A stretch of DNA of 62,609 nucleotides, the filler included, from Asterionella formosa (taxonomy: Eukaryota), in the NCBI GenBank assembly GCA_002256025.1. It is 16 parts of 16 records of this genome, joined end to end, with 100 filler letters (N's around TTAATTAATTAA, not from the genome) between each part and the next. Parts side by side here need not be neighbours in the genome. Positions count along the whole stretch, not along the records: positions 52,325 to 54,299 come from NKIB01000714.1; 15 more parts are not named here. The stretch is one strand, 5' to 3'. How positions within the stretch are numbered: position 1 is the first letter of the stretch; the number at the start of each line of letters is the position of its first letter. The position numbers and the translations under genes were made by a program. Below the pieces are notes generated by a model. That model worked only from the letters and a program-made list of their open reading frames with translations. It was not told the origin of the DNA and did no database searches. This document shows, one piece after another, positions 13,151 through 60,531 of the stretch.

Positions 13151-14213
13151 ACAAAAACGAAGTGCGATAATGAGACTTCTACTCCCTCTCCTAAATTCTA
13201 CTGTGTGAAGCGTCCTTATAGTTTTGTTACTCTTTGGCAATTTGCAATCAAATAAATATTTGAACGCGGAAAAAATAATAATTGAAATGAAAATGGGGAA
13301 TTTTTATGTAATTATGTGGTATCACCATCATAGTCTGGCCACCAAGGGCGCAGCATGCATAGTTTCGCCACTACACGGTTGCGATTGTTGGTCGGTCTAT
13401 TAATATCATATAATTTTTTGATAATTGAATGAACTTATGAACACATAGATTTTGGTTTGATCCAAATAAATAACGGAAAAGATAACATAATATTTTAGAA
13501 AACCGGCATAAACACGTCAGCTTAGACATTAATTCGAAAATGTTTCATAAACGGCGTCTTACGACGCACCTGATTAGAGAGCTTAACTTCTTTATTTATT
13601 GTTTAGCTGCGCTTGACGCTCGCCCCAATGAAACTCAAATTATAATAAATTTCTCGAGTTGAACTGTCTGTCAGTGGACCAAGACCAAATCTCCAGTTGA
13701 AATCATAAATTAAGAAACTTTTACATGATGATGAAATTATTCAAAAATCAAAACAACATATTAGCAGTTGAAATCATTCGACGAAAATTGAATTGTTTCA
13801 TTGACTTCAACTCTCAGCAGATCCAACCGAGTCTCGCTTTCAATATGAATCATTAGCCCTCATGATATGACCCTTGGTTATCCAACACAACAAAGCTGTT
13901 TTCAACCTAGACGCAGACCTCATTAAATTATTTGGTTCAACTCTCAGCAGACCCAAATCTATTTTGGCATTCCAAATGAATCACTACTAGTCTTCACCAC
14001 ATTATGATAGATTATTCTTTGCAACCAACAGTATGTATGCACTTTTCGAACAGGTCGACACAAACTTGATCAAACTTTTTGTTTACGATTAAATGCTCAC
14101 AAGATCCAAATTGAATTTCTCTTTCCATGGGAAGTATAAAAAATTTAGCATGTTTCATAGTCCAATTTTACTCCCCTCTTTCGAGGCAAGTATTTCATTG
14201 TGCTTTCTGTCGA

Positions 14214-14499
14214 CAAGACCTGTGCTTCCCTAGTTTTGTTAGCGTAGGTGAGTCCCCAACCACCTTTCACGAAAGGTGATCGCCTAGCCGCAGCGTTAGG
14301 GGAAACTCCGACCGCCTAGGAAGGCGGCGTAAGCTGCTTGTAGGGGGGCAACCCACTATTTCTTGCACACCAGGCAAGACCGTGCGGGACGGTAAGAAGT
14401 GTGGGAGTCGAACCCAGCAATTCAAAAAAATTGCAAGAATCGAACCTCACAACCTCAGATCAAAGGCAACGTGCGGTCTTATCCACCAAACCATTCCCT
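14214..14499 (-). mobile_element. tRNA-derived SINE-like repeat, copy 2
   Basis: Reverse-complement homologue of 6800-7086, with GGTTCGATTC and GGGTTCGACTCCC B-boxes on the minus strand. Confidence 0.7.
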
Positions 14500-15169
14500 T
14501 CTCCATGGGAATTGAAATTATTCTTTATGACGATAATTTTTCAAACAAAACTCGACTCAAGAAGAATTGATTTTTTACCTACCGGTAATCTGCCAGCTAC
14601 CCCTAAATTAGTTTTCGCTTTGCTTCCAGACCGTATGAATTCTTCTTCTTTATTGTGACCATAGATTTTCTCCAACAAATCAAAACATAACATTTCTGGT
14701 CCTTGTTCATACAAGTCGTTCTTCATGATGACCTCATAACCTATCAAATCAAAACAGTATATTTGTACTAATTGGACGAATGGGTGCCAATTAAATCTTG
14801 GCAGGCCCAAACCGAATTTTGATTTCGATCTGAATTTCTATTTATTGTAATGATGTGAGATCTTATTCAACACCAAGAACTCGAAATAGCATGATGTTAG
14901 TACTGCTAGCTAACTCAAAATTATAGTTACATGGTACATTGAGTGTACTATGTATACTGGTCGATGAATTGTACATATCCATGCACGCTTTCAGACATGC
15001 ATTGTATATTTTATAATGTGCTGCCCCATTTTGACATCAAGTATGGCGTACGAACCGATTCTGGATTCCGTCCTGTGGTACACTCCTCGTGTGGAGAACT
15101 CATTGTATGTAATCTGATCATATCTGACCTACGTAAATGTCAAAGTGTCCGGTAAAACTGAAATGCAAC

Positions 15170-18100
15170 TCATCACATAAAAGAAATGATGCATCACATA
15201 ATAGTTAAGCTAAAATTAGTTTTGATAACTTCCATAATTTTTTAGAAACCCATATAATTTTTGGGCAACTAACAATACTTTATGCAGCCAATCGAATAAT
15301 TTCTTGATCAACGACAACAATTATTATTCGCAGCAATCATCTATAAATTCTATGAATGAACAAAAGAAACTGAAAATGCTTTTGAAATGATAATATTGAT
15401 GGAACAGCTACTACCAGAACTATTTTTAGATTGTATGACTAAGTAGTAAATTAAATTTAGAAAATTGCAGATTAGGAGCATGCTGATGTGGAAGCAGGTG
15501 CGAAAATTGCGGAATAGGAACAAGTTGATGTGGAATCACTGCTGCCCTGCTTGCTTGCTTGTGACGACCTCCTTCTGGTCGTTTTTGTACAATCAACAGT
15601 TATTCCGACACCTTCACTTCAATCACAGACCAGCAGTAGCTGCTTAATCACTAGAATCTCGTCATAGTTGTTGGCTGATTGTAGCTTGAAAATTAATGAT
15701 TCCTGAAAATAGGAGGGAGATAAACTAGGGAGAGTTGTTGAATTGAAAACAATTACAAAGCGCACAAACCAATCATAAATCTTCTTACCTTATTTTGTCT
15801 CTGGAATGTCAACAAAGCATTTTTGCTTCTGAAGCACGAGCTAGATTACTTGAGTGAGTGCTTGCAACGGACAAATAGCAAGAAAACAGATGAAACAACT
15901 AACAACATACCACAAAGGCGCCAACAACCAAGCCTTGAAAAAACCTTGATTTTTTCGAATCTTGAATTTTCGTTCATGGAAGGCTATAATTTAGAGAGGA
16001 GGATGAGGTTTGAGGAGAAGAAGCTCATATTATCCAACAATTGCATCATACTTACTGCGCAGAGTTCATCATCATCAATTTGGTTTTCCATGATCTCGGC
16101 ATATTTTACAATTTATTCGGTGCAAGAATGATGAAAGGGTCGATAATTAATTTAAAATGATTGCGGAAAATTGTGCTCACTTACTAATACAATGTATCAA
16201 ACTCCTGTCAACTTTTTGGGTGGGCTGCAGTTTTGTACAAGTCAACCACGAGGACCACCAATTTTACCACCCTTGTTGCTTGAACTACCAGTAGCATGTG
16301 ATACAAAAGGAAAATAATTATGACTTGATTGATGTTCAGGATACCCGAAGTATCTCTTGTCAGAGCTAGTATATAATGTTTAGCTTAGATGGGGGATTGC
16401 ATTCTAGTTGGATAATAGCACGCCTTCATAGGTGGCGGTCAGCGCCCGACGTCACCACATTTGTTGGGATGATCCTGGGTTGGTAAGTAGTTCTAACTAT
16501 ACAAATGCATTAACATCAGGGCTGGAAGGTCCAGTAGTGCACGTTGACCTTTATGCGCACCTTTTAAGTTTCGATGCACTCCCAATAGAATGTCTCACCT
16601 GCCGGACGAGATAGACTGGCTTTCATTCAAAACTCTAAGTAACTTTGTTCAATTTTAAATTTATAATTCCTTAAATCCAAGTCGTGTTCTGGTTATCGAA
16701 ATCGTGTTCACCTACTACTACTAATACTGGTAATGGTTTTAAGCGATTGGATGACGGTTTGCTAATGGAATTTCCCAATCAGTAACTTCTAGTCATAGTC
16801 AGCAATTTCTAATCATATTATTCTTGTATGTTTATCAACGTTCGCTTGTTAGTTTTTGGTCCCACCTGATTGATTTCCATAAATGACGTGGAGGCATGGC
16901 AACATAAAAATTGTCTTTCCGTATCTGTTCCAAAACTTCTTACGGTTTCAGAGATTTCCTTGATTCTTGTGGTTTCAAAGCAGGTGCAACAAATTCTGCC
17001 GAAAGTATATTATGAAATTCAACAACGCTCAATTCATTTGTTTCTCAACATCTATGATATGGTTTCCATTGTAGAAGTCTCACACTAACTATATTTACTA
17101 TGAAAACAAAGTATGCTTTTGATTCTATTAGATCCATTCAAAATCAATGTCGTCATCAATGTCCAATTGATTAATGTGGTCATTGCAATCAATATTCTTC
17201 TCAGGAACATTTGGTTGAAGTGCTGGTTCAACATATTGATGCATATCCTCTTCACTTACGTTGGGAAATGAGAAGTATGAGTGTTGGTAGTTGATGATAT
17301 TTGTGATGGAAGAATCAATTCCACTAGGATTCCTTCCATATTCAGATCGATTCTTTTGTGAAAGTCCAGTGTAGAACTCCTTATAAAAAACAAGCAAATC
17401 ATCAGTCCATTGGAAGTGAGACCATTTGAAACTGAACTTTCTTCCCTCACACTTTTTTGATAAGTGGTTTCCCACCAATGTCAACAAAATCCTTAAAACA
17501 CCAAGAAGCAAAATGCTTCTGAGCTGGCATTAATCAGTGAACCAACAAAATTAGATTGCAATTCAAACTGTGCCCAAAGACTGAGTTGAAATTTGCTCAC
17601 ACCAGATTTGTATCCTGTTCGAAATGCTTCTCCATGCAAGCTTGATCCATTTTGCTTACGATATTTCTTTTCATGAAGCAGGCATTGCTTGCTTTGGCAT
17701 AATAACTCTACTCATTTCACATGCCGAATCTTCACAAAAGTAGCTGACTTCGGAATTGTTTTCGATGATTTTACAAAGAAATTCTTTTCTTCCATGCATG
17801 ATTTGGAAAAAGATTCGATTTTGTGCTTCAAACTTCGTTCCCGACACAGTGCATCAGCTGCCTTAGCCAGTATGTTCATCAAATCTCTGTCTGCATTGAT
17901 CTTCTTGAATTCGAGGTCTTGATCTAGCGCAAACTTTTTCTTGTAGATCTTTCCTTTTAGAAATGCAATAGTTTCTTTGCTTTCATGATGTTCATCAATC
18001 TGGACGAATGGAGAGAGATATTTCTTGGTTTTGCAACTTTTCAACCATTTCTACTTCAGAAGTGATGTCTCCCATATTTCCGCCGGTATTTTCATTCATC

Positions 18101-20641
18101 GCATCAACTCTGCCATCAAATGAATGAGAATCACTGAGTTCTTCTTCATTATCAGCGATTTCGGGTGAATGAGCAAAATACGACACTAGATGGTGGAACT
18201 GTGACTCTGTAGGAATAGAGTCTTCATCTGCGAAGAACAACTGTTTGGGCTTCCTCTTCGAAAAAAATTTGTATTATTATGAATCTGAGTGTATTCAATG
18301 GAATCTTCGATTGATTTCATAAGTTTCTTCATCTTCTTTTCCGAAAACATAAAGTCGTGAAGTGTAAACAATGGAAGTAACAAGTCACGTTGCTTGTTTG
18401 ACTGATCCTTTCCATGAAATCCATGAAATGCCATTTGGAAAGTTTTCGAAGGGCCAGAAGACTATGATGTAAAATAGTGGAAGGGAAACGCGGAGCTTTT
18501 TGCGGCGCTTGTGGAGGTGCAACTGGTGTGATGGTAACCGAGTGTAGTAATTGTTGAACAGAGCACAGTGTAATATGAATGTTCCGCCAGTGTAGTGTTT
18601 ACACAATACATCTGCCGGTATATATAGCTATAACAAGGAAAAACGACATGATGATGAACTTGATGGCTGGTTGTTGAGGATACCGGTATGTGATGTGCAT
18701 CAATCCATATCACAAATCACATTATAGTGATGTACATATCAACGCATCCATATACTTAGATTCTATCCACAATAGAATACTATCATTTTAACTGTTGGCT
18801 TTTACTGTACACCTTTAAAGTCGAATATATATATACATATTTTAATTAACATACTTTATGATTAATCAATTTATTTTCTATGATGTTTTGATAACACTTG
18901 CGTACATATTTTTTCGTACTTTTTTCATTGTATTTTTTTTAACATAATCATATTTTGATTATAAATATATCATGGACATTTTAAGAAATCATCATAGTTC
19001 TATGATAAATGTATAATAGCTATTGATATGATACTTTATTCGATATTACATATCATACTTTGGTGATGTATGCATCGATGTAAACCTATCGTGATATCAC
19101 ATTATCATCTTATCAATCATGATGAGATGATTGGGAACTGTAGTATTCTGCATCGTACTACGGAGTATGATATTATAACACGCAATTAAGTAGCTAAGTC
19201 ACTCCTGTAATGTAAACAAGTCGACAGTGTATGTACACACACGCTAATCAGGTTTGAGGCAACAGACAATGGTTCCAAAGAGCACATCACGATATGGGTA
19301 CCAATTTTTCCTGTGACAAACCGCAATGACGAAGGACACTTGCCCCTCTATTGACGAGGATGACATGGACACCGACTTTTCCAGGAGCAAACAACAATGA
19401 AGAGACCCACTTGCTGCTCTATTGATGGTAACAAAGATGCGGACAAGTTCAACATTGAATACAAGAACAACATACCAATGAAAACAAGTCGGCAGTGTGT
19501 GTACGCACACGCCAAGCAGGTTTGAGGCAACGGACAGTTCCAACAAGCAAATGATGATATGGATATCAAATAATTCCTACAAGCAAACAACAATGAAGAG
19601 AGCCACTTGCTTTTGCTCTCTTGATGGTATCAAAGATGCGGACAAGTTTAACAGTGATTACAAGAACAACATAGCTACCAATGAAAACAAGTCAACAGTG
19701 TGTGTACACATGCGCTAAGCAGGTTTGAGGCAACGGACAGTTCCAACAAGCAAATGACGAAATGGATATCAAATTTTTCCTGTGGCAAACCACAATGATA
19801 ATGATGAAGGACATTCGTCCCTCTTTTGTTGATGATACCGATACCGGTCGGTTTTTCCATGAGCAAACAACAATGAAGAGGGCCACTTGCTGTCGCTCTC
19901 TTGACGGTATCAAAGATGCAGACAAGTTCAATAGATAATACAAGTACAGCATGTGAAATGCGGAAACGAGCGATATGACAAAGAAATTGTAATCAGAATC
20001 ATTCTATTACTAAAACTATGTTCATAGCAGTCTGTTATACTTTCGTATCTCCTTCTATGCTGAATCTCAATAATAGATGTAGCATCATGTGAGAATTGAA
20101 AATGTCAACAAGAACAAGTAGAATGTTTTTGTTTACAAGTTGATCTGCGAGATTTTCATGCTGGTGGTCAACAAAACGGATTTTACTATTTGCGCTGTAT
20201 GTGGAAACATTCCGAGTTTGAATGATTTCTTCTTTGTAACTCTAAATTGAATGATTATGAACATAGGTTCACTGCACGTGACGATTAATCAAAGATGTAA
20301 TGATCACTTGACCAACAATTGAAGATGTCGTTATCGCAAACAATTATTCCACTTGTCATGGCTAGTATTTTGTTGATGTGGAGAAAATCGGAGTGATGAC
20401 AGATAATAGTAACAAGCCAAATTACATTACTTTAGCTGGTGCATGATCATTTCAAGAAATTCAAATACAGGAATCTAATAGAAACAATACATATAATAAT
20501 CAAATATACACAGTCAAAAGGGTTACTATTTAAATTACAAGGGCATTTATCAAAATAATTAGATGATATAACGAAAAATTATGTTCATATGATCGCAATC
20601 CTATGATGCATCATGGGAACATGATAGTTTTTATATGCAGA
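15170..20641. mobile_element. Large unclassified dispersed repeat (probable decayed DNA transposon) with internal tandem repeats and broken ORFs
   Basis: 15170-15290 matches 51190-51315 (reverse complement). 18619-20165 matches 52789-54077. 20415-20641 matches 33252-33478 (reverse complement). Three imperfect ~200-270 bp tandem units lie at 19214-19950, and fragmented minus-strand ORFs at 17128-18713. Confidence 0.6.
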
Positions 20642-21337
20642 CGAAATTAAATGGAGAATTAGGGTGGTGGTGAAAAACCCCAATGGCAAGCAATTTTTAT
20701 CATTGTTAGTCTACCCACCTAATGGAATTCCGGCTTGGAAAGGAACCGCTTTTTCCGATATGCGTGGACAAAACCAAAATGGAATTCTGGTGCAGTGGTG
20801 GTAAGGAAAGAAAAATTAGTTCAGTTGAGGTACCAGGTAGACCATGCCATGTCTGAGCTGTGATAATCATCAATCGTTCCTCTGCACTGCATGTATTACT
20901 CATGATGCTGTCGCAGCAGACCCCACATATATGACATAATTTGTGATGGACATTCTACAGCATAGTTTATATTTACTGTTACGTACCCTCTGACTAACAG
21001 ACTAATATAAACTTGCTAATTGCTGGAAGCCTCTTCAAAAACCACATTTGAGTACTTGCTGGACACTCAACCAGTCTACTGTATAAAAATGGGTAATAGA
21101 GCTGCTAGATTCTAAATACCGGTATATTCATATACTTGGTATGACAATAAGGTAATGGTGTCTATAGGGTAATATCAATTGACAGACATCTAGCAACCTC
21201 CAAACAGTTCCACCATTTTTATCATTCAGATCCTAAGTAGCTACAACAGACATTTTTGCATTCAATGTGTACCATGTTTGTTCCTTGACCCACCACTACA
21301 TGCCAACTAAGGTAACTTTTATACTCTGTTAATAATC

Positions 21338-24124: not shown

Positions 24125-25680
24125 TAAATGGCGACAAGTGGAGCATGGCTTTATACAACTGATAGCATTATTCATATGAAGAAAAATGGAACAACTTGAT
24201 CATTGCCTCTAGTCAAGATCATATTGTCCAACTGGCATGTTTGTTGGTTAATGCCTAGAAGTTATGAAACTCTGATTGTGGACAAGGAAGATACTTTCTT
24301 GGCTGTAGTCAATTGTTGTACTGCATTTTTAGTGAGGACATATTGTAGACTAAGAAGATTTGGCTTCTAGTACCATTACACCAACAGCTAGATTCCTTTC
24401 GAAAGAGAGAAGAATATAGTGAATGCTAAGAATGATAGCTAAAAGGATGGTGGAAGCATTTGCAAGGCAGCTTATTTTATTTGCTGGTAATCAAAGGATC
24501 AAAGAAACACAGTGATCCTGGAAGCTGAATATTGCTGAAAAGTTGGTGAGACAGGAGGTCTTAACAGTGCTGGCATCAACTTGTTCTGAGATATGATAAT
24601 TTGACTGGAATTGGATTGGTGACAGACTTGAAAATTTTAAAATGGCAATAATTGATGAAATTAGGAATCTTCTGGTTGATAAGGAGTCCAGAGAGGAGAC
24701 ACTTGGGCTGCCAAAGCATTAGAGGATCAGAGGAGGAAAGTTAAGTGCATGTCTTTGGTACCTGGCATGGTAGTGTGTGTGAGCTGCAGCAATGAAGAAT
24801 AGTTTCTTGGAATTTCCCGAGGGTCTGGGAGCCTTCTAGGGCAATATGGGAGAATTGGAATTGGAATTGGAAGTGGTAGGGAGGGAGGGAGGGAGGGGAA
24901 GGTTGTGGCAGTGGAAATGGGCATTCATTTGAAGAAAGAACTTCAAGAAGGTTGTGTACTAGTAGGAAAAATGCATATTCTCAGGAGGGCAAGGGTGGAT
25001 TTGGTTGATTTTTGCTGTGGAGGGACCAGCAAGTCTAGCAGAGCAAGTTGAATGGGAAGAAGAGTAGAGGTTGCAGCAATATCTAAAATGAACAAGGTGA
25101 ATGAGGAGGGTGGGTGGCAGCAGCCTGGTACTACATGGGGGAGAAAACAAGCAACTCCTTCTGGATTACCTCTGCACTATCCAAGAAAGTTCAGTATTGC
25201 AGTGCTGAAAAGTTGAAATTAATACGTTATTATCATACATATGTACCGGTAGTACATATCTTATGGACACAGCAGTACTGCTTGATAACTGGTACCAGGT
25301 ACCAGGTACCATACTCAGTACTATGGCTAAACCAGGAGTACCATCATTGTAAGGTACCGGTACCCTGGTACCAGGTACCAGGGTACCTGGTACTCCCGGG
25401 TGTAATTCCACGACTCTAGGGAAATCATGCTGTGGTAGAAAGAACCAGGTTCGGGTACCGGTACCCTTGCACTGTCAACCAGGTAATTATACCCCTTAGA
25501 CTATTTGTAGTCTACCGGTATACCACCGGTCAAAACTACCCGGTGATACCAAGTAGAACCAGTACCGGCATTTGTGTTCGTTGCTATTTGCTATACACCA
25601 TACTGTGTATGGCACCTAGGGGACGTTCATCTTCTTCCTGGAGCCAGCCTCTATTGAACAAACGCAATTGGTGCCTCGTC

Positions 25681-27793: not shown

Positions 27794-28749
27794 CCATCCT
27801 TTTTAAAGGATCTTGGAGAAGCAGAGTAGTAGCTTATCTTTTCATCCGTTTGTTCTACGAAAAGGATTGTTCATCACAATGATCCATCTCCGCCATTGTC
27901 AAGACATCGCTGAAATGTTATGATTACTGCATTACCAGGTACAAAACATGTATTCCTGATGAAGGGTTAAATTGCCATGATGAATGAAAATGACTTTTGT
28001 TATGGCATGCATACCGGTATGTACTTCGACAGGAGGGGTATCTGGTAGGCAGGCAGGGCAGAGCCAACGACGTCCACGTATTTTCTTCGAAGCAAGGAAT
28101 GGGCTTGGTTGTCCGGTGCAGAAAACATATGTAGCTGCTAAACTTGCTCTGATGAATCCTGCTACCTGGTACCTGGTACCAGGTACCGTAGCTAAAAACA
28201 GACCCTCCCATTAATACCCGTAGGATAGAATCCTCGTATGGTGATGGTGGTGTATAAATAAACCGGTATATGTGTTCGAAGTTTTGGCACAGGGGTGTCT
28301 TTTTCGTAAAATTTTGCCCCCACAAAATCAGGAGGTGTACATGCCAGAAATAGGCGACCTATAGCTGGGGTACCTGGTACCAGGATACCGGTACCATATT
28401 GTAATTCTAGTATCGTCAACCTATTTCTTAGTGCCTCTACCCTTTGGTCTAATGCGACAGCTCTGATACATGGTAACTTGGCCCCCCATTGTCCATGTAG
28501 CGGTGCTGATGTAGGTGAAGTCATTCTTTGGAAGCCGAAGGAACCTATTAAATACCGTGGCTAGAAGAGGGATGGCAAAATTGCATTAAATACAGGGTCG
28601 CTAGGAAGAAGAAATACAGTGACCCAGTTGCTTGCTGTCCTCGAAAAAAAATCATCCATCATAAAATTTGGATAATCTATTGTAGCATAGTTGGTTGACA
28701 TATCATGAGCTGGTATGCACGTAATGAAACCACTGTGTGACTCTTGTAT

Positions 28750-30120: not shown

Positions 30121-30851
30121 ACTGTTAGTATAGTTTAAGTTTCAAAATGAAAAAGGAGCTGGTTTTGAAATTTGTTACATGAAAAAAATTCAACCAAAAG
30201 CAAGTTCGCCTTTCTATGCCCTTCATCTTTTGGCTTCCAGTATGCCCATTCCCTTCATCTTTTGGCTACCATCTATCTAGTTCATGCCGAAACCCACCTC
30301 ATCTCTGCTCGGATGATTTTTCACCTACCGGTATGCCGGTAGCAACATGCCACTTGTACTAACGAGCACGCTACCCTGGTACCATATCGAAATTTATGGC
30401 GCTTCTTACTAGCGCGCTCCAGTACTGCCCTTGAATGACCGGTCAATACCCTATCTATCTCGCGCCGCTCGTCTTGATACCGGTATGTATTACTGTATTC
30501 TGCTACTCCATCATTTACCGGTACCAAATATCCGGTCTATTTCCGTTACGACATTACTCAGACTACATCTAGTCTTCGGACACCTGTCGACATCAACAGC
30601 CTAACAGACACATTCTGACACATCTCAACCTTCTTTGCATTGTTTCATTTTCATACGTAGGACTACCGGTACCAGTTCAAATTTTACCAAAATATTTATT
30701 ATTCCGGAATATTATATGTAACCGTTGTATGTTTCACATGATACCAGGTACTGTACATCAGTAAATTTGATTTGTAATGCCTAATGTCATTCCCTGTTGC
30801 TATGGCGATTGTACCGCTAAATATTTTACTCCATAACTCACTTTCGCCTTA

Positions 30852-31391
30852 GGGCCGTTCTTATCATTCTGTTATTTGTTGTCATTGGTGTATCATCACC
30901 GAAATATGATACAAAAATGGCGGTTTGGTTTTTTTTGTGTATCACCAACGGTTTTTTTGGTCTGATCACCGGTGTATCATGGGTGTATCACTGATACAGT
31001 TTTTGGACCCCTGACCAATGCTGTATCACTGATCAAGCCGTTGATCACTGTGTATCACGTCCGTTGCCACTGATAAAATAACTGTAAATACGCAAGCACA
31101 ACACTATTAAATATTGCGCCAACTATTTTTTGTTATATATATACTACGGTACTCTGTCTACATTACCTTTCAGCTTCGTGAGTCATACAAGAATCAGTAG
31201 TCCGCTCATATCTATACCAATCTTCCAACATCGACTATATCTTGATTAATTGGCGCAATGAGCTGCAAAGTAGTGGGTACGGCTGAAACTTCTGATGCTG
31301 CCTCTATTCGCATTGATTCGGAAGAGAAGCAATGCGTTGTAGCTGATGAGGACGTCGAAGATATTGTTGAGTTGTCTACTGCTGATCCAAC
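30852..31391 (+). mobile_element. Probable DNA transposon left end (PIF/Harbinger-like terminus) with subterminal TGTATCA repeats
   Basis: TTA is followed by GGGCCGTTC at 30852. Clustered TGTATCA/TGATACA/TGATCA motifs at 30888-31060 precede a short acidic ORF start at 31258, which is cut by the contig end. Confidence 0.45.
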
Positions 31392-31491: not shown

Positions 31492-33251
31492 ATCTCTTGA
31501 CAAATGACACACTAATGTCACCACAAAATGTGTCATTTGATTTCGTCAATCCGTGTAAAGCACCACAACCCACCAGTGTCAGATCCGAATTTCACACTGG
31601 TACCTGGTGGATAGATGCCCATGAATATTTATGTTCTCAGCCAAATGACTTCCTTGTTCCACTCATGTTCTTTATTGACAAGACACATACGGTTGAAAAA
31701 GGAAAGTACACAATGGAGCCTCTCCTAATGTCACTTGGTATATTCACTACCAATGTGAGAAATCCAGTCCCTAACAACCCCTGATCAAAAGGAATCCGAT
31801 TACCACGCTGTCCTTGTTGTGATTCTTGAGGGTGTCAAGAATGTCCAACAAGCTGGTGGATTCAAACACATTTTCAACTTCGGAAGCAATCAATTTACAC
31901 TTAATGTGAAAGTTCCGGTTGGTCTAATTCTCGGTGATGCTGAAGTTTTAGATGGACAGTGCGGACGAAAGAAAACATATCTAAAGACTGCCAGAATGTG
32001 TTGTGAATGTGATTGTCCATTTGATCAAACGGAAAATCCATCTCATGAATGCAGTCCTGTAGGTCAGATTGATTACGAGGAACTATTAATCCGGGGCATA
32101 AAAGATTTATTGGATAATTTGAGCCAAAGATTCATCTATCCCTTTTGGTATCAGTTGTGTTTTGGTGGCGATCCTTTTGGTGTTAATGGGCATGTTCCTC
32201 CTGAAAAACTCCATTCCATTCAAGAAGGAAAAATGGATCACCTCATGGAGCTATATTCTTATATGATCGGGCGCCCCAAAACAGTGAAGGGTAATTCCAA
32301 TCGAAAACTGTTTGACCAGTTGTTCAACAAAATATCTAAATTCTTCCTTCACCAGAGTGACCGAGACCTTCCTTGTTGTTCCTTCAATTTCGGCTTTCAT
32401 GGTTGCAAAACGAAAATAACTGCTAACGAAAGAATCGGAGTGATGCTTAGCTATTGCCTGTGTTGTCATGGCATGTGATGCTGGAATCAAAATCTGCCGA
32501 GAAGAAAGTGGTATGACCAATCAAGAAATTCGAAACTTTCAAGGTCTATTCGAAGGGATGCTCTGCTACAATGCCTGGTTTAGTAAAGAGAGCTATGATG
32601 TGGGAAATTTACCAGAGGAACACCAAAGCGTTGTCAACTATTTTACTAAGCTGGTGAGAAAAGAATGCCCGAGAACAACAACCTCTCAGGGATGGAAGCT
32701 TGCGAAGTTTCACCAACAGATGCATACTGTAATAAACATTCATCATTTCGGAAGTCCACAGGTTTTTAACGGAGACCCAATGGAAAAGAATCTTAAATTC
32801 TTGTGTAAATTACCAGCCAGGACTTCCCAGAAACGCAAAGATGTGATGGATATTCAAAGTGGGGCGAGAATAGTGGAGAACATGGTGATCGGAACCGCTT
32901 GTAGTCAGTTTCTTGGCGAAGATATTGGAGATTTACAATACAAATTGGGAGCTGTCCCAGTTGACGTTGGAATTGTGAAATCCAAAACAGGAGGTACTCG
33001 ATATTCTCTTCTGATTGAAGAAGATGGAAATAATGAATTTGAGATTGCCAGGGTTACATCATCATCAAGTAGCATCTGCAAAACTGGGGTTGACCGAGAT
33101 CTGGTGCGAGTTCTAGGCGCCCAACTCCTTCCTTTCATTTTGTCAATGGAAATTGAAGTGATGTGCGACCACAATCGTAGTGACAACGTAATATTTCATG
33201 CCCATCCAAGCTACCGTGGTGGTCATTCCTGGTATGATTGGGCAGAGTTCC
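31492..33251 (+). mobile_element. Plavaka-type (CACTA/EnSpm-related) transposase, frameshifted
   Basis: EFHTGTWW, PLMFFIDKTH, MEPLLMSLGIF, ILGDAE..D..CGR, RMCCECDC, KLAKFHQQMH..I..FGSP..F.G.P.E, and FHAHPSYRG..SWYDW, spread across three ORFs. Confidence 0.75.
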
Positions 33252-33578
33252 TCTGCAAATAAAAACTATCATATTTCCATGATGCATCATAGGATTGTGA
33301 TCATCTGATTATAATTTTTCGTTATATCATCCAATAATTTTGATAAATGCCTTTGTAATTTAAATAGTAACCCTTTTGACTACATATATTTAATTATTAT
33401 ATGTATTGTTTCTATTTGATTCCTGTATTCGAATTTCTTGGTAGGATAATGTACCAGTTCAAGTAATGTAATTTGGCTNNNNNNNNNNNNNNNNNNNNNN
33501 NNNNNNNNNNNNNNNNNNNNNNTTAATTAATTAANNNNNNNNNNNNNNNNNNNNNNNNNNNNNNNNNNNNNNNNNNNN

Positions 33579-35564
33579 TCACAACTCCCTCCGAGGAGCC
33601 ATGCCAACCGTTGTTGGTCAAAACCGAGGGCGAAATTCGGCCCTAACGTCCGAACTTTCGCGATCAATTCTGCCATGTGTGGCTCGGTACGTAGAACACG
33701 CCACCGACCACACGTGAACACTAAGTGTTCCAGCGTTTCTGGTTCATCCATACCACAAAATGGACACTTCCTCAAATACCTATGAGGCATTCGCTTCCAC
33801 CCCACCAAGGTGGGGACAGTTACAAATGCCCCAATCCGACACCGAACTATCAAAGCCAGTCCTGCTTGGTCTTTGGGACTGCCCCCCACACGTGACCGTG
33901 TGAGTGGATGCTTGTCAAATCCGGCTCCCTCATACCACACTGTGCGGGCCCCCGACGGACGAGTCAAGTTCCGTCGGATCCCACACTCTCTCTCCAAAAT
34001 GCATGCTTTCACTACCTCAGCCAGTACCTTTGGTTCCAGGCTCTGCCATCCAGCACCCAAGTACCGGTACCTCTCCACAATAGACACCGGTGCATGGGGG
34101 AGCGCATAGCGTTTCAGCCAGCGCGGAACCCCTGAACACCATGTCCATTTCTGACTTCGGAATGGTCTTAGGACCAATTCCTGAAGCCAGGTTTTGAGAC
34201 CCGAGGCCTTGGCATAAGCTCTGGCCCGTCGGGCACCCGCCAAGGCACACATTGGCAACATCCGTGCCTCCTTCCAAAGGCCTACTGATGGCACATCCCC
34301 TGCCCTCCTGGCTCCAATGCTAGCCCTAAGGCATCGGTTCAGAAGAACCTGCATTTTGTCCGTAAGGTGACGGTTCATACCATACAGCTCAGCCCCAAAA
34401 AGGAGGCGGGGGGCAACTACTCCTGCAACAGTCAGCAAACGCATGGCCATTGGTACCACCGGGCACCGTAGAAACGGTACCAAGGTGGCAACTGTGGCCC
34501 GCCCTTGCTTGACTCTATGGTCCACCATAGACGAGATAGACAGACCTGGTGTCATGAGGACACCCAGATACATATATCTGTCCACAACAGGGAGTGGAAG
34601 TCCCTCCAGTTCCAGTCCAGCCACATCTTGTCCAGGGACAAGCGGTTCGGTGGCCGGGTCTGGGTCTGGCGGTAGGAATTCCATCAGCCCGCACTTCCCT
34701 ATGCCCACACTCATCTCGTTAGCTGTAACCCAGTTGGTAACGTGCGTACAGAACCGTTTGGCCGCCTCCTGGGAGGGGCAGATTCCGGCCGCATCATCAG
34801 CAAAGAGGGTACATCCCACTGTCAGTGTGGAGTTCCGCCATGTGCGACTGTCCCCAGTTGGTACCAGGGCACCGCTCTCCTCCGTCCCCACTGCCAAGTC
34901 ATCAATGAAGATGTTGAACAGTATAGGCGAAAGAGGGCAACCCTGCCGCACACCTCGCAACAGTCTGCAGGGGTCCGAGTAAAGGGCAGTCAAGCCACCC
35001 CCCACTCGTACCCTGATTGTCCGAACTTTCGCGATCAATTCTGCCATGTGTGGCTCGGTGCGTAGACCACGCCACCGACCACACGTGAACACTAAGTGTT
35101 CCAGCGTTTCTGGTTCATCCATACCACAAAATGGACACTTCCTCAAATACCTATGAGGCATTCGCTTCCACCCCACCAAGGTGGGGACAGTTACAAATGC
35201 CCCAATCCGACACCGAACTATCAAAGCCAGTCCTGCTTGGTCTTTGGGACTGCCCCCCACACGTGAACGTGTGAGTGGATGCTTGTCAAATCCGGCTCCC
35301 TCATACCACACTGTGCGGGCCCCCGACGGACGAGTCAAGTTCCGTCGGATCCCACACTCTCTCTCCAAGATGCATGCTTTCACTACCTCAGCCAGTACCT
35401 TTGGTTCCAGGCTCTGCCATCCAGCACCCAAGTACCGGTACCTCTCCACAATAGACACCGGTGCATGGGGGAGCGCATAGCGTTTCAGCCAGCGCGGAAC
35501 CCCTGAGCACCATGTCCATTTCTGACTTCGGAATGGTCTTAGGACCAATTCCTGAAGCCAGGTT
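33579..35564 (-). mobile_element. Non-LTR retrotransposon (LINE) RT + C-terminal zinc knuckle, with in-frame tandem duplication
   Basis: GVRQGCPLSPILFNIFIDDL, LFADD, YMYLG and CPFCG...ETLEHLVFTC. 33648-34193 is repeated at 35019-35564. Confidence 0.92.
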
Positions 35565-36420
35565 NNNNNNNNNNNNNNNNNNNNNNNNNNNNNNNNNNNN
35601 NNNNNNNNTTAATTAATTAANNNNNNNNNNNNNNNNNNNNNNNNNNNNNNNNNNNNNNNNNNNNCCAAGGAAGATTTGAGGTTGATTGTCATTTTGCTTG
35701 ATCAACAATGCGTGGCAACAAGTGTTTGAGTGGAACAATGAAAAGAACAAAAAAAATTGATTCGCTTGGTTTTGACTTACTTCGAGAGTCAACTATCATT
35801 CAAAGATCAACTCAAGCACATCCTCAAGCATGAGTTCTACCATAAGCCAAAATCGACTTCGCATCGCTGAAGGCAATCGTGTTATGTCGAGAGAACGCGC
35901 GTGCCTGGTGTCAATTTTCTAACAAAAAATCGTAAATAAATAGTTGAAGTTGAAGACAATTCCATGACGCATCAAGAAAATAAGCGTGACTGGTGTCAAT
36001 TTTAACAAAAGATCGTCTTCGCATTGCTAAATGCAGTCCTGTGATGTATCAAGAATACAACCACCATTTCAAGCGTAAATTTGTACATAATAATTTTATA
36101 CTCAGTGGCAATGACAGGGCACATGCATCTTAATGCAACCGACCACGCATGGAATATGAAACAACGGTCAAACATAAGGTTCATGGAGTTAACATTACTA
36201 ACACTACTAACCTTGTTCCTGTTCGGAATCCGGGTCCTGTTCCTCTCCTGGCTGGCGTAGAAATTCTACGCGGAGCAAATTTTCATACTAACACAGCTTA
36301 CCGGTACTCTATTCATGTTTTCTTCCGTGCGTGTTTTATACAAGCAAATCCATGGGTTAACCCTATGATGATGTCTGGTTAGGGTACTGTGCCGATGGCC
36401 ATACCTGCCGACAATTATGA

Positions 36421-41010: not shown

Positions 41011-41678
41011 CTGATGCTGATCGCAATTTTTCTTGTGCGTGTTGTCCGCCTTCTCCATTTTGTTTTATTTCCGGTACGGGTAGTCGATGTTGGAATACAG
41101 GAATACTACACACTTAAGTTGTGTACAAATTTTAAAAATGTACTCCACAGCTCCACAGCATACCGGTATATTTGCACTCAGTACGTATTAATTGTAGTTG
41201 GCGGTGGCGGTAAAAAGATTCCCGCACGATGACAAGGGATGAGCGATGTCAAAGCTAGGAGCAGTTCCGGCACATCTTTATTAGTTAAATACTACCACAT
41301 ACTGGCGTACCATTACCTCTACCAGTACTGGTACTTGACTCCGGAGTAAGTCATGGTACCTGATACCTGGGTAACGCAGTAACAAGCAAAGTTACCTACC
41401 GGTACCGTGCCTCGGAATTACCGGGTCCTGTTTTGCCCCAGGTAACGATCAGGTACTCGTACCAGGTACCAGGTACCAGGTACCCCTGGTTTGGTATCTG
41501 GGACATGGATACGCAACACCATCAACATACCGGTAGACAAAGACACACCAGTAGACAAGGTCGTAAAAAATTACCGCTAGCAATTGCACTTCTCGACTTG
41601 CAGACTTGGTCGTTGTTCTTGTCAAATAATACTCTTTATGTTGTGCAGGAGGAAGTTATACGTGACTCAGCATCGCAA

Positions 41679-48065: not shown

Positions 48066-48435
48066 NNNNNNNNNNNNNNNNNNNNNNNNNNNNNNNNNNN
48101 NNNNNNNNNTTAATTAATTAANNNNNNNNNNNNNNNNNNNNNNNNNNNNNNNNNNNNNNNNNNNNTCCAGGTCTTCTTAACCAAAGGAGTCAGCAGGTTG
48201 CGGATCAGTCGGTATTCTCATTGAAGGTCGAGGTACTGAGATACGAACCATTTTATGTCGACAAAATTTGCCAGTAATGGGTCACAGCAGTACTTAAATT
48301 TTTATCTATAATTGTATATAATTTTATATACCATTATGATCACGGATTACCCCGTTTGGTTTTCGCAAAATTATTTTTAAGAATTTTCGCATCCAATATT
48401 TATATCACGGTCACACAAAAATGCATTCAGCCACA

Positions 48436-49909
48436 TTAAATGCTTGTGCCTATCAATACCACTGCGATATCGCCCTCATCCCTATTAAGCTCCTGCCCTT
48501 CCACAAGCACAACATCAAGAGGCCGAATTGGATATGGAGAATACTTTTCTCCACGGCAACAAGTCTCCAAATATCTTGCCAACAAGTTCTGTCTGGTTAT
48601 TGGAAGCGGCGCATCGCCGTTGCGCTTGTACCATGTCACCATTGTTTTCAGTTCAGCTACGTTGTAGCTTCCAGCGTCCTTTTCAGTCTCTCTGATGGCC
48701 TGTACCTTCTGTGACAATTCAAAAAACCGTTGATTCAATTTCTGCTCCTTGTTGCTTCCAACTTCGTCAAAAAAAAACCGCTTGTCTGGTCTTGTCAATT
48801 TATATTTTGTCTGCAATCCAAATGCCTCCTCTTCAGTTTCAACCACATCCCCTTCCTTGTCGAACCACACTTCCTGCTCCAGCTCCTCAGCAATCTTTCC
48901 CATCACCATCTCCTTGTAAATGTCGGCATACATTGCTTCGCAGTTCTGATAGGTACACCAGTCCGCACGTTTGTTGTCAAACTTAACACCTTTTTTGCCT
49001 TGACATTCAGCCCATTCCGCTTCATGAATCCTCGCCAGTACCCCTTTCCCAACTCCTTCGTTGACTGCTGCTCATCCCTGAATGAAAAACAATGCTTGCG
49101 ACGCCAGATTTGAATGTTTTCCCTTATCGAATTTCCATTTACAAGTGAATTTGCAAGTTGCAGTCCCTCTCGGCATGTGATGGGTGAACGCATTTTACCC
49201 AACTGATCAATGAGCTCCACAATGTAAGGTTCCACTTCAAGCATAGGTGAAATGCGAGCTGTGTTTGTTCCTTGATTCTTTTTTCTTTTTGCACGTGTTC
49301 TAACTGTTTCGAAATTAATATTGACAGCAGGAGGAATACCAAGCGCCTCCTTTTCTCTCAATATTATAAAGGTAAGTGCATTTCTCTTCAATCGTGATTC
49401 TCCTCCTCCTTCTTTTTCTTTTTCCTCTTCTCTCACCCTCATATATTCTGCTGCTGAATTGGAAATACATTCTTTCACTTTTTCTGCCATGATGGAGCTG
49501 GCTACTGCAGTTGTTCCCTTTGGACGACCACCATAGGGCAGGGTTGTAGTGGCAGAAATGGTGCTGCTGCTTTCAGTTGATGCAGTAGTAGTGCTGGCAG
49601 GAGGCAAACTAGAACTTGTAGACATAATCATAGTATTAATGGAAGAATGATAATGAATTTTTCTGCTACAGACATAATCATAGTAGTAATGGAAGAATGA
49701 TGATAATTTTTTCTGCTATAGCTGTAATTTTCTACACCTTCCATTGTCAGCATGGATTTTTCGCTTTCTTGTGATTCTTCATGCACATCCTCCTCAGGCT
49801 GTTTGTCCATGCTGGTACTGGTGCCACCAGATGATCTCATTTTCCTTAGAAAGTATTTCACTTTCTGTGTAGTCACCCATGGGACAAGTTCTTGTACACC
49901 ATCGTGCAC
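48436..49909 (-). mobile_element. Decayed pogo/Tc1-mariner-like transposase with internal deletion
   Basis: GGRPKGTT, a CENP-B-like HTH (SPMLEVE...GLQLANSLV...LGKGYWRGFMKRN) and the first catalytic Asp in FFDEVGSN. The sequence then jumps to the C-terminus; frameshifts present. Confidence 0.7.
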
Positions 49910-51414
49910 AGCACAAGAAATTGCGCCATATGGTACATCTAAGACGCGAAATACGCCACTTTTCGAAATTTCGTCTACGTATGAGTGTTAAATATGTGGT
50001 ACTTCACATGCATTAATGCCACTCTTCACGTAAAAAAGATTACTTTTAACGGTTTCATGTGAAGTTTTAACTGTTTCATGTGAAGTTTTCACAATGAATT
50101 TTGAACGCGAGACTGAATTAGTTGATGTTTCAAATAATTCATTTGANNNNNNNNNNNNNNNNNNNNNNNNNNNNNNNNNNNNNNNNNNNNTTAATTAATT
50201 AANNNNNNNNNNNNNNNNNNNNNNNNNNNNNNNNNNNNNNNNNNNNTCTTGCCTTTTGTTGCTTGATACTGTTTGCTGTTGCTTGTTGTGGGCGGATCTC
50301 CTCTCCTATTCTCCTTCGTCTTTGTTCGGAATTGTTAGCGCATGAATTGCTATTTGTAATGAATTATAAAAAGGGCTTGATTGTGTGCTTGTTACTTGCT
50401 TGTTGATCACGAACTTACTCTGCAAACGCTGTTCTTTGTCTACAGACAATCAATCTGTTGAGCGAGAGATTTGTTGGGAATCAGGCTGCGGCATGGTAGC
50501 TAAGCACAACGAAAATGATGCCTTTGTAACGATTGTTTGTTCATGAACTCACTCTACGATTGTTGTTCACTGATTGCAGACAATCATATGATCAGGGCTG
50601 GGTTGGCCATTGGGGAACATGGTAAGGAGCACAGCAGAAACGAAATCATGGCTTCGTAACTTTTTTTCTCATCAACTCACTCTGCAAATGTTTCCCTCTT
50701 TCTACAAAAGACAATCAATCCGAGCAATGAGAATGAGCAGCCGGCTCATTTGCTATGAATTGATCTACCGGTAGTAAACATGGATTCCTGCAAGTACTAT
50801 GAGTAGCCAAGCAATCTTGCGTTAAGTTACAGCATCCAGCTGCAAGAATGAACATCCATTGCTTGTCGTATTGGTTTGAGAATCACGTTCTATAGAAAGT
50901 ATCAATATAAACTACTATATAGCGAAGCGATTAATTTGATTGATTTTGCGATTGTAGAATGAAATTGAAAAAGCGAATTGGTTACACATAATTATTTGTT
51001 TGACTAGCATATATATTTGTTTAACCTTGAGGTATTAATGTGATCAAAGTAAAGATAAAATGGGAGCAAACTAACAGAATTAATGGTAGTCAGAGTGAAG
51101 AATATTTGTGAACGGAAATGTTGCGAATTGTCGAGAAAAGTACCGTATTATAGAGATTATTACTGAACAAATTTTTCTTCCTCTCGCAAGAAAATATTGT
51201 CAGTTGGACCCAAAAATTATGTGGGTTTCTAAAATAATTATGGAAGTTGTCGAAACTATTTTAGTTCACTCCGTCCATATATATTGTATGATGCATCATA
51301 TTTTTTTGTGATGTCATACCCTTAAATTATGTACGTAGCTAAATTCGTCATATTGGGCCACCCAAATGATTAATTTGGGTGATCATATTTGACTAGCGTT
51401 TTTTTTGTGGCGGC

Positions 51415-52583: not shown

Positions 52584-52787
52584 AAATCAAGCAAAAACGA
52601 AACTAGTCCTGACAAGGGATACTGTATCGTCGATCCGGAAAGTGGGGAACTCATTCGTCTCACAGTAGCCGAAAAGGAGTGTATCTTTCTGGACGCGCTT
52701 CAGTCCTACGATGCCACTGGAAGGCAAATGCTCAAGGATGACGAGTTTGACCTATTGAAAGAAGATTTGCAATGGAACGGATCTGAG
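52584..52787 (+). pseudogene. PGRL1: PGRL1 (PGR5-like 1) exon fragment
   Basis: After a pyrimidine tract and AG acceptor the frame reads ...PDKGYCIVDPESGELIRLTVAEKECIFLDALQSYDATGRQMLKDDEFDLLKEDLQWNGSE, then stops inside a repeat. Confidence 0.8.
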
Positions 52788-52788
52788 C

Positions 52789-54077
52789 ATATATATAGCT
52801 AAAAAAAGGAAAGACGACACAACAATGAACGTGATGGCTGGTTGTTGAGGATACCGGTATGTGATATGCATCAATCCATCATGTCACAAATCATATTATA
52901 GTGATGTACCTATCAATGCATCCATATACTTAGATCCTATCCACTGTATAATACTATCATATTAGCTAACTGTTGACTTTAACTGTATACATTAAACGAC
53001 AAACACATATATTAATTAACATACTTTATGATTGCTTGATTTATATTCGATGATGTCTTGGTAACACTTGCGTACATATTTTATCGTATTTTATTGTCAT
53101 TGTATTATTTTTGCATGATCATATTTTGATCAAAATTATATCATAAACATTCTATAAAATCATCATAGTTTTAGGATCAATGTATCATAGCTATGTGATG
53201 TACTTTATTCAATATTACGTATCATACTTTGGTGATGTATGCATCGATGTAACCTTATCATGATATCACAGTATCATCTTATCAATCATGATGAGATGAT
53301 TGGGAAGCAACTGTATTCTGCATTGTGCTACAGGGTATATTATTATATCACGCAATTTAGTAGCAAAGTCACTCCGCCTGTAATGCACTAAAGTCGACAG
53401 TGCACATACCGGTACTCAGACGCTAATCAGGTTTGAGGCAACGGACAGTGGTTCCAACGAGCGAATGATGATACCACGAGTACCAATTTTTCCAACGAAA
53501 GAACTTGTCTCTCTATTGATGAGGATGACATGGACACCGACTTTTCCAGGAGCAAACAACAATGAAGAGACCCACTTCGTCTGCGTCGCTCTATTGATGG
53601 TAACAAAGATACGGACAAGTTTAACAGTGAATACAAGAACCACATTCCAATGAAAACAAGTCGACAGTGGCTGTGTGTACGCACACGCCAAGCAGGTTTG
53701 AGGCAACGGACAATTCCAACAAGCAAATGACGATACAGATATCAAATTCTTCCTACGAGCAAACAACAATGAAAAGAGCCACTTGCTTTCGCTCTCTTGA
53801 TGGTATCAAAGATGCCGACAAGTTCACTAGTTAATTCAAGTACAGTATGCCAAATGCAGAAATGAGCGAGCGATATGAAAATGAAATGCGTTCTAATCAG
53901 AATCATTCTATAACTATAGCTATGTGGACAGTAGTCTGTTACGCACATTTTCGTATCTCCTTCTATGCTGAATCGAAATAGTAGATGTAGTATCATGTGA
54001 GAATTGAAAATTTCAACGAGAACAAGTACCGGTAGAATGTGTTTGTTTACGGGTTGATTGGTGAGATTGTCATGCTG
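52789..54077 (+). repeat. Second copy of the 18619-20165 repeat segment
   Basis: Colinear similarity to 18619-20165, with fewer internal tandem units. Confidence 0.9.
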
Positions 54078-54414
54078 AAGTGGACAAATCAGATATATTT
54101 TGTGCGCAAAGACGGAAGTTGGTAGGGTTTATAATGTCATTTATTTCTCCGTTCTGAATGATTGGACCATTTATAGCAGCAGCATCATGATCTACTAAAC
54201 TATCAAGGAATAAACCATTATCATAGTCATCGGCATCAAAACAAACTGTTTGAACGAAATCAATTGAACTTTCAAATGAATTATTTGAAACATCAACTAN
54301 NNNNNNNNNNNNNNNNNNNNNNNNNNNNNNNNNNNNNNNNNNNTTAATTAATTAANNNNNNNNNNNNNNNNNNNNNNNNNNNNNNNNNNNNNNNNNNNNC
54401 GTGCGTTATCCATC

Positions 54415-59821: not shown

Positions 59822-60531
59822 TTAGGGATGATCATTTACATTACGACGTGATGGCCAAACAATCTTGTTTTGTTTCCATAAAATATCAAAATGTTCAATG
59901 AGTTTACTCTTGAAGAACTGTAAACTTAAATGCCGAACCACTCGAACTGTATCAACATTCTTTGTTAGCACTTCAATATTGAAGTTATCATTTGGATCTG
60001 GCACTAAATTGCGAATTGCATCAGGAATTTGTCCATCACCATCATTACCAGGACCCATTCCAGAGGTATCAATTGTTCGCAAACTGGCTAATCCAAGTAC
60101 TGCCGGTCTTGCAACTGTATTTAGCCTTTGAATAGCAAAAGGTGCTTCAGCACCATTTAATTGGCCTAATGGTCCTTCCCAGTCACTTAAAACACCATTT
60201 TGCCATTGCAGGTCTAAGCCATCAATATCAAGTAACATGTTATGAAATGCACAACATGTTAGCCAGACTTTGTCAGGTTCTGTTACTCCATGTATTCGGA
60301 TGCCTGATTTTAAAATCCGCCAGCGTCCCTTTAGTATTCCAAAGGTACATTCCACATCTTTTCTAAGTGACTCCAGCCATTCAGACCATCTAAGTTCTTG
60401 TTCCGTTTCTGGGTTTTTGGTTGGAGGCACTGTTGTAGACCATTTTAGATATCCATTGTCAACTATCAAAAAGCATCCACTATACTTTATGGATACAACT
60501 GCTCCATTCCGATCTTTTTCTTTAAGCTCAA
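59822..60531 (-). mobile_element. PIF/Harbinger transposase C-terminal part
   Basis: VDNGY...ESLRKDVECTFGILKGRWRILK...CCAFHNMLL, the DDE_Tnp_4-type motifs. Confidence 0.92.

What the first reader, a model, noticed from the sequence alone, without database searches (positions are those of the whole stretch)
53407..54034. Filled/empty site pairs show TA being converted to TACCGGTA
Seen: two copies of one repeat differ by a clean CCGGTA insertion after a TA, at two sites. GAACAAGTA|GAATG (TA at 20119-20120) corresponds to GAACAAGTA|CCGGTA|GAATG (54027-54034). GTCGACAGTG-tatgTA|cacac-ACGCTAATC (TA at 19234-19235) corresponds to GTCGACAGTG-cacaTA|CCGGTA|ctcag-ACGCTAATC (53407-53414). Established: Tc1/mariner elements duplicate a TA target and leave TA + terminal bases + TA on excision (e.g. 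Sleeping Beauty TACAGTA/TACTGTA). Inference: an active process, probably excision of a TA-targeting element with CC...GG ends, writes this palindrome de novo into the genome.
Basis: partly seen in the sequence, partly recalled or inferred. Interest (0 to 1): 0.8.

Follow-up and report, generated by a model that had tools for sequence, protein, structure and literature searches.

The report
Jumping-gene exit scars in a diatom
In this diatom, plain TA sites keep turning into TACCGGTA, most likely as the scar left when a resident cut-and-paste jumping gene departs; the mechanism is textbook, but here two different jumping-gene families appear to have stamped tens of thousands of such scars, each with its own signature.

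Summary
Confirmed. Both filled/empty pairs are real, and they are gains. Across 60 copies of the host repeat, site 1 is filled in 28, all inside one nested clade; site 2 is filled in 14 of 56. Seven of 13 six-base insertion sites are TA>TA-CC(G/A)G-TA. TACCGGTA occurs 28,528 times in the assembly (control word 1,718) and TACCWGGTA 26,886 times (control 902). I found the predicted elements: young pogo-like DD35D transposons with TA|CCGTA…TACGG|TA ends (P1, P2), and a Pfam-less DD37D family with TA|CCA ends (P4). The flanks of TACCGGTA match P1/P2 insertion sites; the flanks of TACCWGGTA match P4's GG|TA preference. P4 also inserts into existing scars, which would explain the chained arrays. Missing: any locus seen both with an element and with its scar. 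Unexplained: new CCGG gains fall only in the younger subfamily. CCGG-ended DD37D elements exist in other organisms and remain a rival source. The scan noted this motif before on other pieces of this genome; I found no description in the papers searched.

The parts
53407..53414 (.). Filled site 1, TA-CCGG-TA
   Evidence: filled in 28 of 60 family copies, all in one clade; 12 of them carry a second unit, TA-CCGGG
54027..54034 (.). Filled site 2, TA-CCGG-TA
   Evidence: filled in 14 of 56 copies that cover it
19234..19235 (.). Empty TA matching site 1
20119..20120 (.). Empty TA matching site 2
52852..52859 (.). Older TACCGGTA fixed in the whole repeat family (copy B)
   Evidence: 0 of 42 covering copies show exact loss of the 6-base unit
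18681..18688 (.). The same fixed TACCGGTA in copy A
52787..54107 (+). Host repeat, copy B (partial; younger subfamily)
17689..20643 (+). Host repeat, copy A (older subfamily); start approximate, right end …TGCAGACG. The family looks like a TIR DNA element with CG ends and a 2-base target duplication
   Evidence: TIR pair with 'ac' duplication in L025 (one copy only)
48166..49935 (-). Decayed internal fragment of a P4 (DD37D, CCA-ended) element; ends not in this contig
   Evidence: 95% identical to L162, which carries the TA|CCAGTAAAAAACTGC end
14141..14500 (+). Fragment of a P2 (CCGTA-ended pogo-like) element, no terminus
   Evidence: 88% to L091
6800..7102 (-). Second P2 fragment, no terminus
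   Evidence: 80% to L091
25355..25392 (.). Chain of five TA-sharing units (CCGG, CCCTGG, CCAGG, CCAGGG, CCTGG)
28163..28185 (.). Chain of three CCWGG units
41460..41482 (.). Chain of three CCAGG units
25279..25280 (.). TG in the window where one contig of run X2 reads TACCGGTA: probable between-strain polymorphism
   Evidence: (table 4); one contig, depth 32

Best explanation
TACCGGTA is the main excision scar of resident TA-targeting pogo-like transposons with CCGTA…TACGG ends (P1, P2). Step 1 (shown): the element inserts at a TA and duplicates it. Step 2 (inferred from Tc1/mariner chemistry): on excision the non-transferred strand is cut a few bases inside the element, leaving a 3' overhang, here probably CCG, on each flank. 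Step 3 (inferred): the two CCG overhangs pair through their terminal CG, one base is filled on each side, and TA-CCGG-TA results; a one-base overlap gives the minor TA-CCGGG-TA. A 2+2-base join (CC+GG) gives the same word. Step 4 (shown as a pattern): the six extra bases are inherited, kept out of coding DNA, and decay by point mutation. The same geometry applied to the CCA-ended DD37D family (P4) gives TA-CCWGG-TA. P4 prefers GG|TA|CC targets, which its own scars create, so it re-inserts there and builds chained arrays. I put attribution of most CCGG scars to P1/P2 specifically at about 0.65.
For: Polarity is gain: tree on insertion-free rows and states. Seven separate TAs gained a CC(G/A)G unit and none gained it away from a TA. 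P1 has 89 exact termini, nine copies 99.4-100% identical with different flanks, DDE_1 at E 1e-21 and DD35D. TA duplication is seen against empty paralogues (L081, L117), and a P1 end pair sits in a TA of this same host family. Flank profiles of 96 P1+P2 ends and 419 CCGG words do not differ (P 0.35-0.88 at four positions); both differ from background TA at position -3 (P 4e-4 and 1e-8). GG precedes the TA in 40 of 55 P4 ends and 191 of 367 CCWGG words, but in 7 of 96 P1+P2 ends and 52 of 419 CCGG words. 17 of 55 P4 ends abut an existing unit, against 2% of background TAs. CpG decay does not explain CCWGG: TACCAGGTA 106 versus TACTGGGTA 2. Footprints of 2-4 terminal bases between TAs are canonical for Tc1/mariner (PMC6943129, passages).
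Against: No locus was found in both the element and the scar state: 33 of 170 element ends had an element-free paralogous flank and none was a demonstrable scar; no element sits at site 2. The one near-identical pair (L235+L287 versus L284) shows P4 inserted into a scar, not leaving one. Private CCGG-type gains are 4 in subfamily B and 0 in subfamily A, although A has 1,048 private substitutions to B's 361. L022, inside the filled clade, is empty at site 1. Scars outnumber P1 elements by several hundred to one, and a rough steady-state estimate gives 0.13-0.19 per kb against 0.42 observed. The P1/P2 flank signal is weak, so the match has limited power. The CAGT-ended family P3 leaves few TACATGTA (13 in about 417 kb). 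In rice, natural excisions are mostly irregular (8 of 94 perfect; PMC4423477, passages).
Confidence: 0.8

Rival explanations
1. Same mechanism, different culprit: an unsampled or now extinct CCGG-ended member of the DD37D family makes most TACCGGTA, because 4-base CCGG overhangs are self-complementary and religate exactly. (This is a variant within the excision reading.)
For: Relatives in metagenome contigs have TA|CCGGT ends (L387, L391, L393, L398, L400), and L400 has a TACCGGTA unit directly beside its end. The series CCGG/CCGGG/CCGGGG parallels CCAG/CCAGG/CCAGGG. TACCAGGGTA needs four bases from one end.
Against: All DD37D ends seen in G000 begin CCA. No CCGG-ended inverted-repeat family appeared among 779 TACCGG starts in the fetched loci, which cover only about 1% of the assembly. 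CCGG flanks lack P4's GG preference.
Confidence: 0.2
2. Scars without stable insertion: the transposase integrates and at once removes the element, or attacks a TA abortively, and repair copies the element tips. Most scars then never hosted a heritable element.
For: Scar-to-element ratio of hundreds to one; no element-to-scar allele pair; scars far more uniform than natural excisions in rice.
Against: Serial hopping leaves one scar per jump without raising copy number, and the rough steady-state estimate is within threefold of the observed density. No such pathway was found in the papers read.
Confidence: 0.1
3. A transposon-independent repair or polymerase process writes CCGG at TA, or the word is a selected regulatory or methylation site.
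For: The same repeat shows many other '2-base duplication plus core' insertions (NN-G-NN, NN-C-NN, NN-GC-NN) at any dinucleotide. The words avoid coding DNA (0 of 55 in ten long ORFs, P 6e-4).
Against: Selection cannot supply the same six bases at seven TAs of a decayed repeat. The two words carry the target signatures of two different element families. Avoidance of ORFs is expected of any insertion.
Confidence: 0.07
4. The differences are deletions by TA-to-TA slippage from an ancestral TACCGGTA.
For: L022 is empty at site 1 inside the filled clade, which may be one such loss or a gene conversion.
Against: All 30 copies outside the clade lack the site-1 insert, as do the repeat's internal tandem units. 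42 of 56 copies are empty at site 2. The family-wide TACCGGTA shows 0 exact losses in 42 copies.
Confidence: 0.02

Closest known systems
Canonical Tc1/mariner excision footprints (Sleeping Beauty TACAGTA/TACTGTA; C. elegans Tc1 +4 scar)
   Same: TA kept twice around 2-4 bases from the element tips (PMC6943129, passages). Tc1 leaves a +4 scar in 78% of somatic excisions (PMC13148408, passage citing Eide and Anderson 1988).
   Different: Those are assay or single-locus results. Here about 55,000 intact scars of two kinds stand in one 68-Mb assembly, are heritable, and chain into arrays.
Passer (PS) DD35D family of the pogo superfamily
   Same: DD35D, short TIRs, TA duplication, 1.6-4 kb, 400-500 aa transposase, footprints of 0-4 bases (PMC9976928, passages and section 19). 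P1 is 2.46 kb with a 406-aa DD35D protein.
   Different: Passer is described from animals. P1 carries a second 145-aa ORF on the opposite strand. I did not place P1 on a tree with Passer, and the footprint sequences of that paper are in a figure I could not see.
Stowaway footprints and repeated use of one TA in grasses; rice excision survey
   Same: Repeated insertion and loss at one site with distinct footprints (PMC1925063, abstract only).
   Different: Single locus; genome-wide rice excisions are mostly deletions or filler DNA (PMC4423477, passages).
maT (DD37D) family of Tc1/mariner
   Same: Same D-to-D spacing as P4 (PMC7325037, passages).
   Different: P4 has a much longer protein (779-aa frame), no DDE_3 or DDE_1 match and a pogo-like DGHxS motif (recalled); shared spacing alone does not show kinship.

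Membership tests
Tc1/mariner/pogo excision footprint | TA duplicated around a short core | tested here: met
Tc1/mariner/pogo excision footprint | Core equals the terminal 2-4 bases of a resident element | tested here: met
   P1/P2 ends CCGTA…TACGG; P4 ends CCA…TGG
Tc1/mariner/pogo excision footprint | Arises as a gain at a single ancestral TA | tested here: met
Tc1/mariner/pogo excision footprint | Flanks share the element's target preference | tested here: met
   strong for P4/CCWGG, weak signal for P1+P2/CCGG
Tc1/mariner/pogo excision footprint | Same locus seen with the element and with the scar | tested here: inconclusive
   None among 33 comparable ends of 170; the assembly collapses young copies
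Tc1/mariner/pogo excision footprint | Formed in a transposase-dependent way | not testable with these tools
   Needs an excision assay
pogo superfamily, Passer-like DD35D (for P1) | DDE_1 domain with DD35D | tested here: met
pogo superfamily, Passer-like DD35D (for P1) | Short TIRs and TA duplication | tested here: met
   18-26-base inverted matches; empty paralogues
pogo superfamily, Passer-like DD35D (for P1) | Brinker plus HTH DNA-binding motifs | tested here: inconclusive
   BrkDBD E 0.007 and HTH_Tnp_1 E 4e-4, both under the curated cut-off
pogo superfamily, Passer-like DD35D (for P1) | Falls in the Passer clade on a DDE tree | not tested
   No reference sequences at hand
IS630-Tc1-mariner/pogo transposase (for P4) | TIRs flanked by TA | tested here: met
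   55 of 62 ends have TA, pattern did not demand it; full 3.4-3.5 kb elements
IS630-Tc1-mariner/pogo transposase (for P4) | Conserved D-D-D/E triad in a Mos1-like fold | tested here: inconclusive
   D310 and D459 invariant, D497 nearly so in 49 sequences; top nine fold hits are Mos1, Sleeping Beauty and SETMAR at probability 0.89-0.98 but E 0.013-0.18; triad in register with P1 but E 0.17
pogo DDE_1 (PF03184) (for P4) | Match to the DDE_1 profile | tested here: not met
   0 of 49 members; so P4 is not filed under a named family

The most novel reading that the evidence does not exclude
Transposon exit scars are a leading source of small insertions in this diatom's non-coding DNA, with family-specific signatures, and an undescribed, widespread DD37D family runs a ratchet: each scar creates the GG|TA|CC target it prefers, so repeated visits write GGTACC-rich tandem arrays from nothing. 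A third scar class (NN-GC-NN, NN-G/C-NN) would come from 2-base-duplicating elements, making the genome a countable record of past jumps by family.
Probability: 0.45. Interest if true: 0.78.

Novelty: new variant of a known kind. Interest (0 to 1): 0.62.

Why it matters
Excision normally leaves little trace that can be counted. Here scars are uniform and family-specific, so the lifetime number of jumps of each family, their target maps and their share of new mutation could be read directly from sequence. It also warns that the top over-represented non-coding words in such genomes may be transposon scars, not promoter motifs. P4 is a candidate new TA-targeting transposase group with a GG|TA|CC preference.

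Tried and rejected
DDE_3 search of G000: 0 matches. Allele search with one young P1 flank (L069) gave a rearranged paralogue, uninformative. L155's apparent scar allele (CCCGGTC) proved to be the pre-existing flank, since the element's other end L269 carries it. An apparent CCGG-ended TIR in L210 was two inverted copies of another repeat. Pattern search for an element at site 2 gave one unrelated match. Contigs of four runs laid on 20700-31391: X8 and X15 covered little; X1 may be the source sample; only one CCGG-type difference was listed (X2), and 14 further indel rows were not shown. CpG decay as the source of CCWGG rejected. P4 profile against PDB sequences: 0. Paper searches with no description of this motif or of genome-wide scars in diatoms: (listings only; 40 of 509 hits seen). 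Subscription journals and supplements were not seen, so absence in print is not established.

Full report
Observation. The two filled sites (53407-53414, 54027-54034) and the two empty TAs (19234-19235, 20119-20120) are as described, and the two repeat copies align with a 6-base gap at each. TACCGGTA occurs 33 times in the window; shuffles give a mean of 0.42. A sister word, TACCWGGTA, occurs 22 times, and the units chain through shared TAs. In G000 (68.4 Mb) the counts are 28,528 against 1,718 for the reversed control and 26,886 against 902. None of the 55 words lies in ten long host ORFs that hold 12.6% of the window's TAs (P 6e-4). The organism is taken to be a diatom from named homologues; I did not go further.

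Direction of change. The repeat has about 750 first-look candidates in G000; I took the 30 best loci for each window copy, so the sample is 60 of several hundred and is biased toward the two queries. On a tree built from rows with insertions removed, the 30 B-type copies form a nested clade with support 100/99. Site 1 is filled in 28 of those 30 and in 0 of the other 30; the basal B copy L023 is empty, and L022 is empty inside the clade, which may be a loss or a conversion. Twelve copies carry a second unit, TA-CCGGG, at the same TA. Site 2 is filled in 14 of 56 covering copies (13 in B, plus L058). Five more TAs gained a unit, three of them in a single copy each, and one stacked on the family's fixed TACCGGTA. 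After merging shifted calls and one tandem tract, and adding site 2 (which a reference artefact scored as five bases), 7 of 13 distinct 6-base insertion sites are TA-CC(G/A)G-TA (merge by hand). None of 15 deletions of 5-8 bases removes the unit, and the fixed TACCGGTA shows 0 exact losses in 42 copies; this last test rests on one site. One contig of run X2 reads TACCGGTA where the window has TG at 25279-25280.

The predicted elements exist. DDE_1 gave 93 matches in G000. Of 70 loci examined, all but L083 belong to three families (L107 is 83-85% identical to P1 copies): P1 (TA|CCGTAAAACCTGG), P2 (TA|CCGTATACTTC) and P3 (TA|CAGTGAAACC). P1 is 2.46 kb, has 89 exact termini, a 406-aa DD35D transposase, and nine copies 99.4-100% identical with different flanks. 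Empty paralogues show TA duplication, and two P1 ends match the two sides of one TA of this same host family. The window's own ORFs at 48436-49715 led to a fourth family, P4: 99 termini with CCAGTAAAAAACTGC, full elements of 3.4-3.5 kb, subfamilies with CCAGT, CCACT and CCACC ends, and a 779-aa frame with D310, D459 and D497. It has no Pfam or PDB sequence match; its predicted fold (pLDDT 81) is closest to Mos1, Sleeping Beauty and SETMAR at probability 0.89-0.98 but E only 0.013-0.18. It has at least 273 relatives in public data.

Linking words to families. GG precedes the TA in 40 of 55 P4 ends and 191 of 367 CCWGG word flanks, but in 7 of 96 P1+P2 ends and 52 of 419 CCGG word flanks (P 5e-17 and 4e-34). 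With flanks that are themselves units removed, the contrast between the words persists (73 of 197 versus 17 of 324, smaller sample). P1+P2 ends and CCGG words do not differ at four flank positions, and both depart from background at position -3. That signal is weak, and P4 and CCWGG differ somewhat at -2 and -1 (P 0.015, 0.044). 17 of 55 P4 ends abut an existing unit (background 2%). One near-identical pair shows P4 in the first TA of a TA-CCTGG-TA unit whose other version lacks the element (L235+L287 versus L284; joining the two ends as one element is my inference).

Mechanism. Tc1/mariner transposases cut the non-transferred strand a few bases inside the element, and end joining leaves 2-4 terminal bases between TAs (PMC6943129, passages); Passer leaves 0-4 (PMC9976928, section 19). 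By inference, CCG overhangs from P1/P2 can pair through CG and give CCGG, with CCGGG as the one-base-overlap product; CCA overhangs from P4 cannot pair and give CCWGG. CCAGGG needs four bases from one end, so overhang length is not settled. CpG decay cannot make CCWGG from CCGGG (106 versus 2).

What does not fit. No locus was seen with both an element and its scar. Private gains number 4 in B and 0 in A (the script's fifth, L009, is a variant of a shared insert), although A has 1,048 private substitutions and B 361 (about P 0.004 by my arithmetic), whereas the G/C/GC insertions scale with substitutions (23 versus 7). Eight gains per 5,140 substitutions predicts 0.13-0.19 scars per kb against 0.42 observed, a rough estimate. 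P3 leaves few matching words. DD37D relatives in metagenome contigs include CCGG-ended elements, so such a family is a live alternative source; I saw none in G000, but sampled only about 1% of it.

Known and new. Footprints are textbook. In rice, natural excisions are mostly irregular (PMC4423477, passages); repeated use of one TA is known for Stowaway (PMC1925063, abstract). Ten searches of the open-access library showed no account of this motif or of genome-wide scars in diatoms (listings only). The scan has noted the same motif many times on other pieces of this genome with the same reading; that is not independent support. One note's mention of CCGG ends prompted my search for such a family. 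Verdict: real, gains not losses, most likely excision scars of two resident families; a new variant of a known kind; interest 0.62.

Noticed in passing
host repeat alignment, L001-L060: A second insertion class: a 2-base duplication around G or C (22 of 45 three-base sites) or GC (15 of 41 four-base sites) at many dinucleotides. Possibly hairpin-type scars of elements with C…G ends and a 2-base duplication, such as the host repeat itself (inference).
   Followed up: partly
L025:193-2788; window 17689-20643, 33248-33478: The host repeat has CGTCTG(C/T)A…TGCAGACG inverted ends with an 'ac' duplication in one copy, internal tandem units of about 200-270 bases, and about 750 candidates in G000; superfamily not determined.
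   Followed up: partly
L081:781-1218: P1 carries a second conserved 145-aa ORF opposite the transposase, with no Pfam match.
   Followed up: partly
L340-L418 (metagenome contigs): DD37D relatives have TA-flanked TIRs starting CCAGT, CCACY, CCGAT or CCGGT; several sit beside TA-CCWGG-TA or TA-CCGG-TA units.
   Followed up: partly
L057: A deletion of about 500 bases in one host copy ends exactly at the fixed TACCGGTA, as expected from re-insertion and imprecise excision.
   Followed up: no
L022 site 1: The site-1 unit is missing and a new TACCGGTA stands 11 bases downstream.
   Followed up: no
window 31392 onward: The window is a string of separate contigs of about 2 kb joined by N runs with a TTAATTAATTAA spacer; only 1-31391 is one contig.
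   Followed up: yes
window 33527-35608: High-GC reverse-transcriptase-like ORF with a 546-base direct repeat at 99% identity (33648-34193, 35019-35564); both copies hold a TACCGGTA in coding sequence, probably unrelated to the scars.
   Followed up: no
window 59822-60526: DDE_Tnp_4 / Plant_tran (PIF/Harbinger-type) transposase fragment.
   Followed up: no
window 31759-33262: Two ORFs that look like a decayed transposase (recalled resemblance to Plavaka-type elements); no Pfam match.
   Followed up: partly
window 30340-31391: Very high summed contig depth in all four runs: a high-copy repeat at the contig end.
   Followed up: no
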